Source: an uncultured virus (IMG/VR IMGVR_UViG_3300036716_001108)
Lineage: Duplodnaviria; Heunggongvirae; Uroviricota; Caudoviricetes
Direction: 5' to 3' (one strand)
DNA length: 20,000 nt
Virus record (IMG/VR): IMGVR_UViG_3300036716_001108
Positions 436-13,345 of this stretch are shown here, piece by piece; within the stretch, counting starts at the first letter, position 1, and each line of letters starts with the position of its first letter. Under the pieces are notes generated by a model. It did no database searches and was not told the origin of the DNA. It saw only the letters and a list, made by a program, of their open reading frames with translations. Both the position numbers and the translations under genes were made by a program.

Positions 436-3243
436 TTAGAAATTAACACTTAACCCTAAGTTAAAGTATCTTGGTGTACCAAGAAATACTTCAGCATTAT
501 GTGCTGAGTGAGTTTTACTCCCATAGCTATTGTATTGACTATGATCTACTGCATCTTGTACATATGTTTCGTCTAATGCGTTAAACACATGAGCAAATAA
601 AGATATGTCATATCCACTAACTGGTAGTTGATATGAAGCATGTAAGTCCACCTTTGAATAAGATGGTGCTTCCCATACTTGTTCTCTGTCTGCATCTTCA
701 TCTGAACCATCGTATTCACGAGAATCAGGACTCCAATCACTATAGTTCTTATCATAAGAATTCCATAGTGCTGAAATTACTAATCCCTTTACAGGAAAAA
801 TGGTTGCACCAAGTGCATATGAAGTCTGTGGCATATCACCAACATTCAACCCGTCAAGGGCGTATTGATAATCTGTAGTGGTTAAACCAGTTACATTACC
901 GTTTTCATCATATTCATTTGATTGATACTTTCCATGAGCATCACCATCAAACTTCCAAGTACCAAGACTTACTGCTGCATCTAAACGAACCAATTTATGT
1001 AGTTGTGTAGAAGCTTCAATCTCAAGTCCTTGATGTTTTTGTTGAATACCTGTTAAGAAAATGACATCAGTATCACCTGAATCACCTTGTCCTGTGGTTA
1101 CTGCTTTAGTAAGGTTTCTGTCTTTCCAATCTGTATTGTAAACATTTGCCTTAACAGCAAATCTTTCAGATTCGAAATTGACACCAGCTTCTGAACTAAT
1201 GAAACTTTCATTATTTGGATCAGAAGCAACCGTACCATCAAAGTAAATCACATTATCCATGATAGGTGGTTTTTCAACATATCCAATGTTAGCAAAAAGA
1301 CTAACATTATCATCTATGTCGTACATTGCTCCACCTTTGAACTGAGCAGCATAGATAGCATCAGCTTCTATTACTTTATCAGCAACTGAAAAGTGGTCTT
1401 GGTAAGAATATTTAATACTTGATAATCCACCCATACCATATAGATTTAGATTATCTTTACTATAATTACCTTGTACAAATCCACCCAACCAATCAACGGT
1501 AGTTTCATTGTGATAAGCGATTATATCACCTAACCCAACTCTTTTACCATCTGGTGCGTTATCATCAGCAAAATCCAAATAATAATCTCCACCTAATAAA
1601 TCACGAACTTCTCGTGCGTGTTCTATACCTGCGGTTCTCCAATCAATACCTACTTGTAACTTAAACTCATCACTAATATCGTAATTAAGTTTAGAAATTA
1701 CACCATAAGTATTTTGACGATTGATACTATTACGAAGAATACCAACTGATTGATTATTATCAACACCATGTGTTCGTGTAAGAGCTTTCTTATCAACATA
1801 TACTACTGAATCATCTCCAGAATTATATGCTATAAGACTATTCCAATCACGAGTCCAGGGACCACGACCATAATAAAATTTATAGTCATCATCACCAAGA
1901 TTACCATCAGCATCAAATGTAGGAATCTTACCATAAGTTCCTGTTCCACCACCAGAACCACCTGACCAATAAAAGACTGAACTTAAACTTGTCTTATCAT
2001 CTATTGTCCAAAAATGATTTAGATTTACTAATGGTTTGTGAAAGTAGTTTTCTCTTTCGTTTAGATAATCACTTGCGTGTCTATCTTGTAGTCCACTATC
2101 AAAAAGTCCACCTACACCATACATATACCAGTATTGTTTACCTTTATATGATGGGTCAACTGGTGACCAGTTTTGATTAAACTTATGTCCTACATCTGCG
2201 AACTTACCATCTTCACCAAGTGCTTCAGTATCATATCCATCTACACTTGCAGCAAAATCAGCGTCATAAGCACCGATATTCTGTTTGTATAGATTTTGTC
2301 CATGTCGCTGTGGAGCACCGATTGCATATAATTCCAATCGATGGTCAGCATTTACTTGATAACTTGAACCAAAATAATATGCCCAAGCGTCTGTCCATGT
2401 CTTGTCAATGACACCATCACCTGTTTTACGAACTACAGTACCACTTAGGGCGAATTTATCACCAATAAGTCCTGAATTGTAATTCAATGTGGTTTTCAGA
2501 AAACCCCCTGCACCACCTTCCTGTTTAAACTTACCACCTTTTGAAGCGGAAGCAGGATTTGTGATTATGTTCATCGTACCACCAATTGAGGGGGCAGCCA
2601 AGTTAACGGCACTTAATCCACGCTGCATCTGGATAGATTGAGCTGCATCTGCAACTCCATCCCAGTTAGACCAATAGACCCAACCGTTTTCCATATCGTT
2701 TTGTGGAACTCCGTTTATCATTACTGCTACATTCCTCTGATTAAACCCGCGAACATTGATACGGGCATCACCCGCACCCCCACCTTGTTGCGTAGCATAT
2801 ACACTTGGTGTAGTATTTAAAGACATTGGTAAGTCTTGTGAACCAAGACGAAATTCAATTTCTTCTTTACTAACTGTAGTATAAGCAACAGGTGTTTTAT
2901 CATCAGCCCTTGAAGCTAAAACTTCAAGTGCAGACATCTCAAGTGCAGATATTAAAAGTGAGAAGTCTACGGTACTAGCCGTTCCCTCTACCACTTCAAC
3001 CTCTACTGTATGAGATGCATATCCAATTGAAGAAGCTTTAATTGTATAAGTTCCTGCCCCTAAATCAATAGAGTAAGCTCCATCTGCATCAGCAGATGTA
3101 CCTAAATCAGTTCCTTGTACTACAATATCAGCCCCAATCAATGGGTTCTTTTCTGTATCTGTAACTGTTCCGACTACCTGCCCATATAAGAACATTGGCA
3201 TCATCATTGTTAAAAATACAGATATTAGATTATTTTTTTTCAT
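436..3243 (-). CDS. TonB-dependent outer membrane receptor (signal peptide, carboxypeptidase-regulatory-like N-domain, plug, beta-barrel)
   Basis: It has an N-terminal signal peptide and a GTVTD...PLIGA.IVV.GT..G...D.DG.Y N-terminal extension. The plug motif is INVRGF....VAVMINGVP.ND. The protein ends PRYFNLGLSVNF, a terminal-Phe barrel signature. A GAGGAG SD is at 3251-3256. Confidence 0.95.
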   Translation of the reverse strand: MKKNNLISVFLTMMMPMFLYGQVVGTVTDTEKNPLIGADIVVQGTDLGTSADADGAYSIDLGAGTYTIKASSIGYASHTVEVEVVEGTASTVDFSLLISALEMSALEVLASRADDKTPVAYTTVSKEEIEFRLGSQDLPMSLNTTPSVYATQQGGGAGDARINVRGFNQRNVAVMINGVPQNDMENGWVYWSNWDGVADAAQSIQMQRGLSAVNLAAPSIGGTMNIITNPASASKGGKFKQEGGAGGFLKTTLNYNSGLIGDKFALSGTVVRKTGDGVIDKTWTDAWAYYFGSSYQVNADHRLELYAIGAPQRHGQNLYKQNIGAYDADFAASVDGYDTEALGEDGKFADVGHKFNQNWSPVDPSYKGKQYWYMYGVGGLFDSGLQDRHASDYLNERENYFHKPLVNLNHFWTIDDKTSLSSVFYWSGGSGGGTGTYGKIPTFDADGNLGDDDYKFYYGRGPWTRDWNSLIAYNSGDDSVVYVDKKALTRTHGVDNNQSVGILRNSINRQNTYGVISKLNYDISDEFKLQVGIDWRTAGIEHAREVRDLLGGDYYLDFADDNAPDGKRVGLGDIIAYHNETTVDWLGGFVQGNYSKDNLNLYGMGGLSSIKYSYQDHFSVADKVIEADAIYAAQFKGGAMYDIDDNVSLFANIGYVEKPPIMDNVIYFDGTVASDPNNESFISSEAGVNFESERFAVKANVYNTDWKDRNLTKAVTTGQGDSGDTDVIFLTGIQQKHQGLEIEASTQLHKLVRLDAAVSLGTWKFDGDAHGKYQSNEYDENGNVTGLTTTDYQYALDGLNVGDMPQTSYALGATIFPVKGLVISALWNSYDKNYSDWSPDSREYDGSDEDADREQVWEAPSYSKVDLHASYQLPVSGYDISLFAHVFNALDETYVQDAVDHSQYNSYGSKTHSAHNAEVFLGTPRYFNLGLSVNF

Positions 3244-11396: not shown

Positions 11397-11414
11397 AACC
11401 TTGATACAATAATA
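11397..11414. repeat. 18-bp direct repeat, copy 1 (AACCTTGATACAATAATA); putative ssb promoter/5' end
   Basis: Identical to 11966-11983. Confidence 0.8.
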
Positions 11415-11459
11415 AGTATCATACCAATAGCTTAAAATGTGATCTATTTTAATTAGATC

Positions 11460-11532
11460 AAAAAAAAAAGGTTCATTTCGTTTTTAAGTCTATTATAAGT
11501 GGAAACTAAAAATCGGTGAGAACCTTTTTTTT
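11460..11532 (-). terminator. Long inverted repeat flanked by A and T tracts; putative, possibly bidirectional, terminator downstream of ncRNA-1
   Basis: A-tract-GGTTC ... GAACC-T-tract outer arms with an internal TTTTTA/TAAAAA pairing. Confidence 0.65.
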
Positions 11533-11534
11533 AA

Positions 11535-11946
11535 ATTTTGGAAATTTTAGGGAATGTAGGATTTGCATACCTACAACTTTCTGCTCAGATTTTATTGCCC
11601 TTGTACCTAACACCCATCAGTTATGATGATTCTTCTCTGTCTGGTTAAGACTATCGAAGTGAGTACAACCTCTGTGTTATTGCCTTATCTCTCTGAGTTT
11701 AGATTGATTCAGCCATGAAAGTAGGATTTCAGTCTTACCCTTACCTACAACAAGGTCTAAAGAATTGCTTCTTTATGTGTTCAGAAAGTACATTAGATGA
11801 TTGATGCCTCAACTACTTAACCATTCGGCCTCGTAGGTTCACCACGAACTCATCTTGGATTACCTTATGGGCTTCTAAAGGATACCCATTGTTCGGTCAA
11901 TTCCATACAGAGTTTATAACTCCCTGTACTTTTCAAAATCCCAAAT
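11535..11946 (-). ncRNA. Large ornate structured ncRNA (ncRNA-1, ~410 nt), family unassigned; size and context reminiscent of ROOL/GOLLD-class phage RNAs
   Basis: No ORF-track ORF here. About ten complementary segment pairs were found by eye, several long-range, plus a 7-bp GCAA tetraloop hairpin and a terminal stem. There is a candidate promoter upstream and a terminator downstream. Confidence 0.7.
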
Positions 11947-11965
11947 TGTCAAAAAACTTTGTATC

Positions 11966-11983
11966 AACCTTGATACAATAATA
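11966..11983. repeat. 18-bp direct repeat, copy 2; putative promoter/5' end of ncRNA-1, overlapping the palindrome TTGTATCAA-CC-TTGATACAA (11959-11978)
   Basis: Identical to 11397-11414, with a 9-bp inverted repeat. Confidence 0.8.
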
Positions 11984-12036
11984 TATATGTATATAAAACC
12001 TCAAAATACATTTTATTTTTATTTTTTTCAAAAAAC

Positions 12037-12477
12037 TTTTGGTGATTCCAGAAGAAGTCGTCTGATCTGATTTCGGACTGCTAGCAGTGATTCTTAATCC
12101 TAATCACCAAAAACTTGTGGTGTCGTGGTTTTCTAACGATTCAAGTCAAAAGACTACCTTTCGGTCAACACCAATTTTGTGGAAAGGTAAGGACTCGAAC
12201 CTTACAGAAGCTTTCAATCGGTATAGTAGATTGATTAAATCTAACACCCTACTCACTCCACCATTATCTTGGTTGATTAATCATCTCAACCTTAACGACA
12301 TACATTCCAATTCTTTGAGATTTCAAATCGGTAGAAATCTCGAAACCACCACTTCGATTTCAAGGACTCGAAGCCCGTCCTAATTCTTGTGCCTTTACGC
12401 CCTTAGACACTTTTCAATCTTATCTCAATCTAATGAGTCGGGCTTTATCTAATTCAATCTTTATCATCCATTTCTTA
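12037..12477 (-). ncRNA. Structured non-coding transcript (ncRNA-2) of tandem modules, including a tRNA-like T-arm unit
   Basis: It lies directly downstream of a consensus sigma70 promoter with no long minus-strand ORF. Consecutive stems are AAGCCCG/CGGGCTT, GAGATTTC/GAAATCTC, GGTTGA/TCAACC, TCAATC/GATTGA, GTAAGG-TTCGAGT-CCTTAC, TGGTGTTG/CGACACCA and TTTTGGTGATT/AATCACCAAAA. Confidence 0.6.
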
Positions 12478-12483
12478 TACTAT

Positions 12484-12512
12484 AATATACAACATATATA
12501 TGAGAAAGTCAA
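12484..12512 (-). promoter_or_regulatory. Sigma70-type early promoter TTGACT-N17-TATATT
   Basis: Near-consensus -35/-10 with an A-rich upstream element. One of three similar copies; it points into ncRNA-2. Confidence 0.85.
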
Positions 12513-12529
12513 GCTTTATTTTCACTTTT

Positions 12530-12778
12530 TTAAGCTAATTCTAACATAGCAAAAGGAACATTATACAACCTACCATTCATATCAACAATAGCCTTCTTGA
12601 TGTTCATCTTAGTGATAACACCAGGAGTTTTCTTTGTCTTCTGAACAACGAATACATTAGCTCCAACAGTTAGTGAAGTTTTACCCAACATAGTCTTACA
12701 ATCATTAACGAATCTTGATAATTCATTTAAATCTGATAGTTTGTCTAATTTCCTTATTTTGTTTTTTATGTTTACCAT
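12530..12778 (-). CDS. Small basic hypothetical protein, possible KOW/SH3-like beta-barrel C-terminus
   Basis: 82 aa with its own promoter and an AAGGT SD. The pattern VGANV.V.......GVITKMNIKKAIV.......NVP..ML suggests the fold (inference). Confidence 0.75.
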   Translation of the reverse strand: MVNIKNKIRKLDKLSDLNELSRFVNDCKTMLGKTSLTVGANVFVVQKTKKTPGVITKMNIKKAIVDMNGRLYNVPFAMLELA

Positions 12779-12803
12779 ATTTATAACCTTTTATTTATAC
12801 CTA

Positions 12804-12833
12804 AATATACAACATAAATAGTATATAAGTCAA
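12804..12833 (-). promoter_or_regulatory. Sigma70-type early promoter TTGACT-N18-TATATT
   Basis: Shares the GCTTGACT...TATGTTGTATATT context with the 12484-12512 copy. Confidence 0.8.
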
Positions 12834-12845
12834 GCACTTTTTTAA

Positions 12846-13064
12846 TTAATTTTCAACTTTATTTATATAAACATGATTCACCGAATATGGTCTTTCTGAG
12901 TATTTAAACTCTTTATTTACTAAATTTGGTATCATATAACCAATAGTAGAGGCGAACCAATTAGCATCTAAATTTTCATTTGGAATTGCTCTATCCCCAC
13001 AACCTTGATCTGGAACATAAATTTCCATAGTACAAGTTACAAAATATCTTACATCTTTAGCCAT
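12846..13064 (-). CDS. Hypothetical protein
   Basis: The probable start is ATG 13064 (MAKDV), in TAATG overlap with the upstream gene; the ORF track starts at 13088. Confidence 0.65.
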   Translation of the reverse strand: MAKDVRYFVTCTMEIYVPDQGCGDRAIPNENLDANWFASTIGYMIPNLVNKEFKYSERPYSVNHVYINKVEN

Positions 13065-13297
13065 TAAAAATCGTGAGAATCTAACCAATCTTCAATTTCT
13101 TGTGGTGTCATTCTCCCGTCCTCTTGTAAATCTCTTCTCCAATCATCTTTTGTCATTCTATCCCACTTCTCAAAGTTTTGATTGGCTGTATGTTGCATAC
13201 TAATATAATTTCCCATTTCAAAGTGTTCTTGTTCTGTAATATTATTTTCTTTTAAATAATCTCTTTTTTCCATCGTTTTTTCGTCCATTTCCATCAT
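13064..13297 (-). CDS. Small acidic hypothetical early protein
   Basis: 77 aa and D/E-rich. It begins a few bases after the promoter -10, so it is nearly leaderless or uses a downstream Met. Confidence 0.7.
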   Translation of the reverse strand: MMEMDEKTMEKRDYLKENNITEQEHFEMGNYISMQHTANQNFEKWDRMTKDDWRRDLQEDGRMTPQEIEDWLDSHDF

Positions 13298-13308
13298 TAT
13301 TACACTAT

Positions 13309-13337
13309 AATATACGAAAAGTATGGCTCAATGTCAA
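13309..13337 (-). promoter_or_regulatory. Sigma70-type early promoter TTGACA-N17-TATATT
   Basis: Perfect -35, 17-bp spacer, and the GTATATTATAG -10 context shared with the 12484 copy. Confidence 0.85.
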
Positions 13338-13345
13338 GCTTTTTT

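What the first reader, a model, noticed from the sequence alone, without database searches (positions are those of the whole stretch)
12037..12477. A strong early promoter fires into ~440 nt of back-to-back RNA structure rather than a gene
The TTGACT-N17-TATATT promoter at 12484-12512 matches those driving neighbouring early genes, yet only a 15-codon SD-less micro-ORF follows. The transcript parses into five consecutive modules. (a) A multibranch closed by AAGCCCG/CGGGCTT (12439-12445/12371-12377). (b) An 8-bp hairpin at 12317-12341. (c) A tRNA-like unit at ~12180-12308. (d) A junction closed by 8 bp (12118-12173) with an ACC-GAAA-GGU tetraloop hairpin and an AGUC-UUUU-GACU hairpin. (e) A module closed by a perfect 11-bp stem (12037-12047/12102-12112). 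Inference: an early-expressed array of small RNAs, for example decoys or antitoxin mimics against host defences, or a second large RNA acting with ncRNA-1.
Basis: partly seen in the sequence, partly recalled or inferred. Interest (0 to 1): 0.75.

Follow-up and report, generated by a model that had tools for sequence, protein, structure and literature searches.

The report
Shuffled phage small-RNA cassette, pseudoknot head
Large ocean bacteriophages use a strong early promoter to make a chain of small folded RNAs that are swapped between phages like building blocks, led by a knot-shaped RNA with a tiny reading frame that stops right at its foot, probably a ribosome-assisted protective cap.

Summary
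Real, and richer than reported. The region is one copy of a non-coding cassette of large T4-like marine phages (110 distinct copies found). Its head is conserved: promoter (99 of 104), then a mini-ORF whose stop ends exactly 0, 3 or 5 nt before a pseudoknot (83 of 84 leaders; shuffles 7). That pseudoknot, module a, covaries strongly, is single-copy in one complete genome and has no Rfam match. The payload behind it is shuffled, duplicated and deleted (51 orders in 103 cassettes): pseudoknots matching the last pseudoknot of these phages' tmRNA, T-arm-bearing tRNA-like RNAs, covarying junction RNAs and true tRNAs, joined by A/U-rich linkers. RNA-library contigs cover it but show no strand or ends. 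Best model (0.45): a ribosome held at the pseudoknot shields the 5' end, linkers are cut, and tRNA/tmRNA-shaped RNAs back up or shield translation. Function is untested. The scan had no note on this DNA family.

The parts
12484..12512 (-). sigma70-type promoter-like site (TTGACT-N17-TATATT) of the same family as those at 12833 and 13337
   Evidence: such a site lies within 110 nt upstream of module a in 99 of 104 loci vs 10% background, median 41 nt from -10 to GCCC
12449..12457 (-). mini-ORF TTG-AAT-TAG, stop ending 5 nt before the pseudoknot (a 5-codon ATG ORF at 12471-12454 overlaps it)
   Evidence: 83 of 84 distinct leaders have start..stop ending 0, 3 or 5 nt before GCCC, shuffles 7 +/- 2.5; coordinates. 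Translation itself is inferred
12389..12443 (-). module a, conserved head: H-type pseudoknot, S1 GCCC 12443-12440 with GGGC 12402-12399, hairpin P2 12437-12424 in loop 1, S2 12410-12406 with 12393-12389
   Evidence: S1 swapped to CCCC/GGGG in L160, L277, L534; one copy in complete G004
12382..12388 (-). A/U-rich linker AAGAATT, candidate endonuclease site
   Evidence: RNWUU in the 22 nt after module a in 71 of 89 vs 39 +/- 4 shuffled; the RNase E consensus is recalled, cleavage inferred
   Evidence: 7 distinct sequences, GGAC/GUCC alternating with GAGAC/GUCUC
   Evidence: in G004 it occurs only inside the RF00023 match
12180..12308 (-). module c, 129-nt tRNA-like RNA: 6-bp acceptor-like stem with a U.U pair, two internal arms, 6-bp T-stem with UUCGAGU loop (12205-12187); no canonical D-arm or conserved anticodon, no encoded CCA
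   Evidence: 7 homologues incl. one partial; covariation inconclusive
12118..12173 (-). module d, small multi-way junction: 7-bp closing stem, GNRA hairpin, optional hairpin, conserved UGAA(A/U)C then GU(A/U)-AGAA-(U/A)AC hairpin
   Evidence: 22 sequences; pair table over 19
12037..12112 (-). module e, three-way junction of the 'g' family (P1-AG-P2-ACUG-P3-CUGG-P1) with an inserted loop shared with another module; followed by a U-tract at 12036-12031
   Evidence: 23 sequences
11975..12010 (-). separate AT-rich promoter-like element in front of ncRNA-1, kept in relatives that lack the cassette
   Evidence: promoter role inferred
11540..11950 (-). neighbour, not part of the cassette: ncRNA-1, 3' half matches Rfam manA (11731-11551, 62.5 bits)

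Best explanation
A phage early stable-RNA cassette made of a fixed head and an exchangeable payload. SHOWN (comparative): promoter, a 2-13-codon mini-ORF that stops at the foot of a conserved pseudoknot, then a variable chain of structured modules with A/U-rich linkers. INFERRED: (1) host RNA polymerase transcribes it early as one precursor; (2) a ribosome loads on the mini-ORF and meets the pseudoknot as the stop codon arrives, so ribosome plus pseudoknot form a persistent obstacle that shields the otherwise untranslated RNA from 5'-end-dependent decay, with further b-type pseudoknots as extra blocks; (3) host RNase E and RNase P cut at the linkers and tRNA-like ends and release stable 35-130-nt RNAs; (4) the payload, shaped like parts of tRNA and tmRNA and sometimes true tRNA, backs up or shields translation, e.g. 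as decoys for host RNA-cutting defences, which would explain its fast shuffling. The anatomy is about 0.9 certain; the confidence given is for the whole mechanism.
For: Stop geometry: 83 of 84 leaders, 24 of 25 leader clusters; at offset 5 the triplet is TGA 23, TAG 21, TAA 11 and never TGG; four control offset sets give 0-1. Only 1 of 85 head promoters is followed by an ORF of 25 codons or more vs 77 of 110 sister promoters. Pseudoknot a. Modularity: 51 orders in 103 cassettes; b in 58, g 24, d 21, c 6, tRNA-Tyr 5, tRNA-Pro 3. Linkers: (c 6 of 6, c2 9 of 9, g 10 of 11, d 8 of 15, b0 3 of 6; shuffles 1.3, 3.1, 4.3, 2.7, 1.0). b pseudoknots also sit between a last gene and an intrinsic terminator in L159, L162, L164, as expected of stabilisers. 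PMC9943677 (abstract and passages): H-type pseudoknots and 6-codon uORFs block RNase E scanning in E. coli reporters, and freezing the ribosome increases protection. RNA-library contigs cover the array with 0-2 differences (X2, X3).
Against: No function was tested. Contigs show no strand, ends or processed pieces, X2 and X3 are one study, and array depth (22-47) is like that of flanking genes, far below ncRNA-1 (550-2300), although depths cannot rank genes. A variant in X3 lacks module a (joint 12382-12470) and L143 carries payload without it, so the head is dispensable in some lineages. At offsets 0 and 3 a terminating ribosome should melt S1 (recalled channel geometry), which fits a switch better than a fixed block. 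In 6 of 110 loci a protein ORF follows within 40 nt, and 24 of 103 cassettes had no module that my patterns recognise. Protective blocks and designed cleavage sites pull in opposite directions. The host and its nucleases are unknown. Leaders are related, so counts overstate independent events. No partner protein found: no SmpB, Ro60, RNA ligase or CCA-adding hit among 135 of 208 G004 ORFs scanned.
Confidence: 0.45

Rival explanations
1. The head is a transcription switch, not a cap: a put-like antiterminator or a translation-sensing attenuator. Efficient translation to the stop melts S1; when host translation fails the pseudoknot stays folded and lets RNA polymerase read the rescue RNAs.
For: Single copy, nearly always first, fixed 39-50 nt behind the -10 box; invariant single-stranded UGAAAA and GUAAA suggest a bound partner; offsets 0 and 3 put S1 inside the ribosome; it also precedes protein genes in 6 loci. 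An unchecked scan note (e1-282178) reads another phage early-leader pseudoknot this way.
Against: No conserved terminator or alternative helix found; the GGGYU partner follows in only 18 of 110; mini-ORF peptides and codons are not conserved; no likeness to put RNA was tested.
Confidence: 0.22
2. The main job is antitoxin mimicry: tandem 34-36-nt b pseudoknots neutralise a type III toxin-antitoxin or similar RNA-inhibited nuclease, as pseudo-ToxI does.
For: b units are 34-36-nt H-type pseudoknots in 1-3 tandem copies (23, 25 and 10 cassettes); copy-number expansion of pseudo-ToxI lets phage PhiTE escape ToxIN (PMC3475682, passages).
Against: No ToxI-family match at E up to 10; b is the phage tmRNA pseudoknot; only 2 real matches among 15 in the species-level genome collection, both on short MAG contigs, so no cellular antitoxin to mimic was found; stem sequences vary freely; it leaves a, c, d and e unexplained.
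Confidence: 0.12
3. Only the head and the true tRNAs matter; the other modules are recombination hitchhikers from tRNA and tmRNA genes in a hypervariable early region.
For: Free loss, duplication and reordering; c lacks a conserved anticodon and CCA; G004 has the head but b only in its tmRNA.
Against: Free-standing b, d and g copies keep compensatory pairs and invariant loops; linkers are conserved in type.
Confidence: 0.12
4. One large RNA that folds or acts with the manA-containing ncRNA-1, or a protein-coding region.
For: Adjacency here; one X3 contig bridges module e and ncRNA-1; a 98-codon antisense ORF exists.
Against:: unlinked in most relatives, no complementarity, no conserved frame, module order not fixed.
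Confidence: 0.04

Closest known systems
Phage T4 tRNA cluster with rnaC/rnaD (species 1 and 2 RNA)
   Same: Phage operon of small stable RNAs mixing true tRNAs with RNAs of unknown function; rnaC is 139 nt with a T-arm and an imperfect acceptor-like stem like module c.
   Different: No sequence likeness beyond the T-arm; T4 rnaC/rnaD are classed as late RNAs of unknown function (PMC9697503, passages); no mini-ORF/pseudoknot head or comparable shuffling is known to me there (recalled).
tmRNA (RF00023), last pseudoknot
   Same: Module b matches the element just before the closing helix of these phages' tmRNA; the order stop codon, pseudoknots, T-arm unit echoes the 3' part of tmRNA.
   Different: No RF00023 or ARAGORN call on the cassette; no 5' tRNA-like half, no tag peptide; module a is not detectably like any tmRNA pseudoknot; the order is not fixed.
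pseudo-ToxI repeats of phage PhiTE (type III toxin-antitoxin mimic)
   Same: Phage non-coding RNA with tandem ~36-nt pseudoknots of variable copy number (PMC3475682, passages).
   Different: No ToxI match; heterogeneous payload; no cognate host antitoxin found.
uORF and pseudoknot obstacles to RNase E scanning
   Same: Both elements protect downstream RNA in E. coli reporters (PMC9943677).
   Different: There tested separately in engineered reporters; here they are naturally coupled at fixed spacing, and protection is untested.
HK022 put RNA (recalled; also named in scan note e1-282178)
   Same: Structured RNA just behind an early phage promoter.
   Different: put is two stem-loops acting on RNA polymerase (recalled); module a is a pseudoknot tied to a stop codon; no Rfam match.
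manA RNA (RF01745)
   Same: Neighbour in this genome; known from marine metagenomes and T4-like cyanophages (PMC2864571, passages).
   Different: The match is at 11551-11731, outside the finding; the cassette has no manA likeness.

Membership tests
tRNA (module c) | cloverleaf with D-arm and 7-nt anticodon loop | tested here: not met
   ARAGORN finds none in the window; the loop varies in length and sequence; one homologue gets a marginal tRNA-Val call from an internal register
tRNA (module c) | T-arm stacked on an acceptor stem | tested here: inconclusive
   6+6 bp possible, UUCRAGU loop kept, but 2 of 6 homologues lose two T-stem pairs and covariation is not significant
tRNA (module c) | 3' CCA and aminoacylation | not testable with these tools
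   CCA is not encoded after the discriminator; addition by the host enzyme cannot be seen in contigs
tmRNA | tRNA-like domain plus tag reading frame in one or two pieces | tested here: not met
   (nearest record G001: no RF00023 match)
tmRNA | last pseudoknot before the closing helix (module b only) | tested here: met
   b profile hits 13 of 13 extracted phage tmRNA regions (these were found by the b pattern), not E. coli or G002 tmRNA; independently present in G004's tmRNA. The name pk4 is from recalled tmRNA anatomy
type III antitoxin / pseudo-ToxI | tandem 34-36-nt H-type pseudoknots | tested here: met
type III antitoxin / pseudo-ToxI | sequence likeness to a known antitoxin family | tested here: not met
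type III antitoxin / pseudo-ToxI | binds and inhibits a toxin | not testable with these tools
   needs host and assay
T4 rnaC/rnaD | sequence homology | tested here: not met
   only T-arm matches, at most 7 bits; none for c
known riboswitch, ribozyme or other Rfam family | covariance-model match at gathering score | tested here: not met
   window, sub-window and 10 homologous loci
rRNA-fragment mimic | significant likeness to 16S, 23S or 5S rRNA | tested here: not met
   a shares a 10-nt word with 16S (E 1.7); d best E 3.7; one b0 hit (E 0.011) is on the opposite strand; model R1 finds nothing in two rRNA operons
put-type antiterminator | lets RNA polymerase read through terminators | not testable with these tools
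   needs a transcription assay

The most novel reading that the evidence does not exclude
A new kind of RNA-only phage system: an interchangeable array of small RNA effectors (free tmRNA pseudoknots, tRNA-like and junction RNAs) under a ribosome-operated head, where a ribosome terminating at the foot of a pseudoknot senses the state of host translation and thereby controls release of RNAs that counter tRNA- or tmRNA-cutting defences.
Probability: 0.25. Interest if true: 0.9.

Novelty: new variant of a known kind. Interest (0 to 1): 0.74.

Why it matters
It adds at least four covarying RNA motifs with no Rfam match (a, free-standing b, d, g/e) from an abundant group of uncultured ~200-kb marine phages, and shows a stop codon held at a fixed distance from a pseudoknot where no protein follows, a natural device that can be tested directly in an E. 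coli reporter. It also shows a tmRNA pseudoknot existing as a free, repeated module, and RNA modules shuffled as fast as anti-defence genes. If the payload is counter-defence, phage non-coding arrays are a missed class of anti-immunity factors, and the old question of what tRNA-like phage RNAs such as T4 rnaC do gains a large comparative set.

Tried and rejected
No whole genome is held for the window. blastn against named phage records gave only 28-42-nt AT-rich hits (18 records). rRNA-mimic ideas (16S word in a, L1-stalk likeness of d, 5S loop E likeness of c; all recalled leads) were not significant. Likeness of a to tmRNA pk1 or pk2 is topological only. CRISPR-repeat, hammerhead, pistol, twister, SAM-II/V and purine-riboswitch resemblances were considered from memory and dropped: no Rfam support. 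b as a coding repeat: rejected, 1-nt indels. Base pairing with ncRNA-1: none of 10 nt or more. The 82-aa gene upstream as partner: present in only 4 of 65 head loci with enough upstream DNA. First cassette catalogue cut arrays short at false promoter matches; redone. nhmmer between the two halves of ncRNA-1 printed nothing, so the tandem reading rests on G004 only. No contig of the 4 runs covers 13007-13340; this proves nothing, since the strains differ there. Literature: nine searches listed no paper on this cassette; the library lacks most subscription papers, and I opened no supplements, so motif lists in supplements (e.g. of PMC2864571, PMC8040213) could hold some of these modules.

Full report
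Setting. The window is AT-rich phage-like DNA with all long ORFs on the minus strand: gp32-type SSB, UvsX-like recombinase, ribonucleotide reductase-like and TonB-dependent receptor genes. A complete 216-kb relative that carries the same head, G004, has T4-type capsid, tail-sheath and gp32 genes, a tmRNA and five tRNAs. The receptor's nearest Atlas clusters are viral and Fidelibacterota (Marinimicrobia), a lead to the host only.

Observation. Alone they are weak: folding z = -1.31, promoter-like sites no more than chance, no ARAGORN or Rfam call. Rfam finds manA next door at 11731-11551 (62.5 bits).

Homologues. Among 80 loci kept from 593 SSB relatives, 35 carry the manA-containing RNA but only L002 carries this array. 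Pattern scans found more: L085, L143, L151, L152, L154, L155 and L156 hold the same modules in other orders, with duplications and losses. Over all loci 180 matches were found; 170 had at least 4 of 5 S2 pairs and were kept, giving 110 distinct cassettes, two of them near-copies of the window. In the 103 with at least 150 nt downstream, my patterns gave 51 module orders, one of them empty (24 cassettes with no recognised module); b occurred in 58, g in 24, d in 21, c2 in 13, b0 in 9, c in 6, tRNA-Tyr in 5 and tRNA-Pro in 3.

Head. A promoter-like site precedes module a in 99 of 104 loci with 100 nt upstream (background 10%), median 41 nt from the -10 box. Only 1 of 85 such promoters is followed by an ATG ORF of 25 codons or more, against 77 of 110 sister promoters. 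In 62 of the 79 short-hairpin forms aligned (long forms left out), 96% of cells pair, all five S2 pairs and four P2 pairs change on both sides, and 0 of 500 shuffles reach the score. S1 was fixed by my search pattern, so it shows no variation there; a covariance model then found L160 and L277, and a further scan L534, with CCCC/GGGG in place of GCCC/GGGC, probably one event. Model R1 finds one copy in each of G001, G004 and G005 and none in fragments G006 and G007.

Mini-ORF. In 83 of 84 distinct leaders (L386 dropped for a duplicated GCCCG) a start codon (ATG 63, TTG 18, GTG 2) runs 2-13 codons, mostly 2-7, to a stop that ends 0, 3 or 5 nt before S1; shuffles give 7 +/- 2.5, four other offset sets give 0-1, and 24 of 25 leader clusters conform. 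All three stop codons are used at offset 5 and TGG never is. The peptides are not conserved. L160, L277 and L534, found later, conform too. This is the strongest sign that a ribosome is meant to terminate at the foot of the pseudoknot (inference).

Payload. Module b is an H-type pseudoknot: in 140 of 149 distinct contexts that pass a stem filter, the outer pair of the crossing helix is Watson-Crick in 116 (shuffles 54 +/- 5), in all four types; 8 of the misses are double-counted alternative registers. The same element is the last pseudoknot of these phages' tmRNAs and in G004 occurs only there. In the species-level genome collection the exact pattern gave 15 matches, of which 2 are real, both on short MAG contigs. 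b also sits between a last gene and a terminator in other loci. b0 is a second small pseudoknot. d covaries in its closing stem and hairpins. e is a g-family three-way junction. c has a T-arm and an acceptor-like stem but no conserved anticodon or encoded CCA, and its covariation is inconclusive. An RNWUU word, the recalled RNase E consensus, is enriched after a (71 of 89 vs 39 +/- 4) and before c, c2, g, d and b0.

RNA evidence. 20 of 21 listed runs hold part of 11400-12800, 18 on record as RNA. I laid 4. X2 and X3 (one study) cover most of the array with 0-2 differences at depth 22-47, ncRNA-1 at 550-2300; X6 has two short pieces at depth 2; X1 may be DNA. One X3 contig skips module a. Contigs show presence only.

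Mechanism. Best reading (0.45): ribosome plus pseudoknot cap, linker cleavage, and a payload that backs up or shields translation. PMC9943677 (abstract and passages) shows that H-type pseudoknots and 6-codon uORFs impede RNase E scanning and that a frozen ribosome protects better. Rivals: transcription switch (0.22), antitoxin mimic as in PMC3475682 (passages; 0.12), hitchhiking payload (0.12), single large RNA or coding (0.04). No partner protein emerged from 135 of 208 G004 ORFs scanned.

Comparison and verdict. It works like the T4 cluster of tRNAs and rnaC/rnaD, which PMC9697503 (passages) calls RNAs of unknown function, but shares only the T-arm with rnaC. It is not a tRNA, tmRNA, ToxI or any Rfam member. 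Nine paper searches listed nothing on it; PMC2864571 and PMC9964418 were read in passages for manA, other titles were seen only as listings, and no supplement was opened. The scan's notes held no look-alike sequence. Verdict: real, new variant of phage stable-RNA operons with an undescribed ribosome-coupled head; interest 0.74.

Noticed in passing
window 11540-11950 (-); G004:C1:181814-182193: ncRNA-1 is about twice the length of Rfam manA, conserved over its whole length in many relatives, and G004 has two adjacent manA-like matches, so it may be a tandem manA RNA; its contigs reach depth 550-2300 in two RNA libraries.
   Followed up: partly
L023, L031, L033, L035 upstream of ncRNA-1: A different promoter-led non-coding insert of about 270-330 nt, closed by a GGUAGUAAA/UUUACUACC stem, occupies the same position.
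   Followed up: no
L159, L162, L164 and similar loci: Two or three pseudoknot-like modules sit between the stop codon of an early gene and an intrinsic terminator.
   Followed up: partly
L179, L223, L233, L260, L261, L273, L464: Phage tmRNAs with unusually long reading regions ending in ...AYA-stop; L082 and L088 hold a permuted tmRNA.
   Followed up: no
L278, L280, L290, L310, L345, L347: A further conserved module of roughly 200 nt ('n') and several other T-arm-bearing families (c2, c3, c4) in the same cassettes.
   Followed up: partly
window 12530-12778 (-): 82-aa early protein predicted as a helix plus Tudor/PWWP/KOW-like barrel (pLDDT 76; best Foldseek E 0.008, none at 0.001); not a regular neighbour of the cassette.
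   Followed up: yes
module a, alignment A2 columns 34 and 49: These two unpaired positions covary (A with U in 29, G with A in 19 of 62), a possible tertiary contact or shared ancestry.
   Followed up: partly
L357, L364, L367: A ~50-codon ORF starts 0-7 nt after module a without a ribosome-binding site, hinting at re-initiation across the pseudoknot.
   Followed up: no
window 12076-12087: Perfect 12-nt palindrome in module e of this phage, absent from most relatives.
   Followed up: no
window 436-3243 (-): Phage-borne 935-aa TonB-dependent receptor, also in G004; nearest clusters viral and Fidelibacterota.
   Followed up: partly
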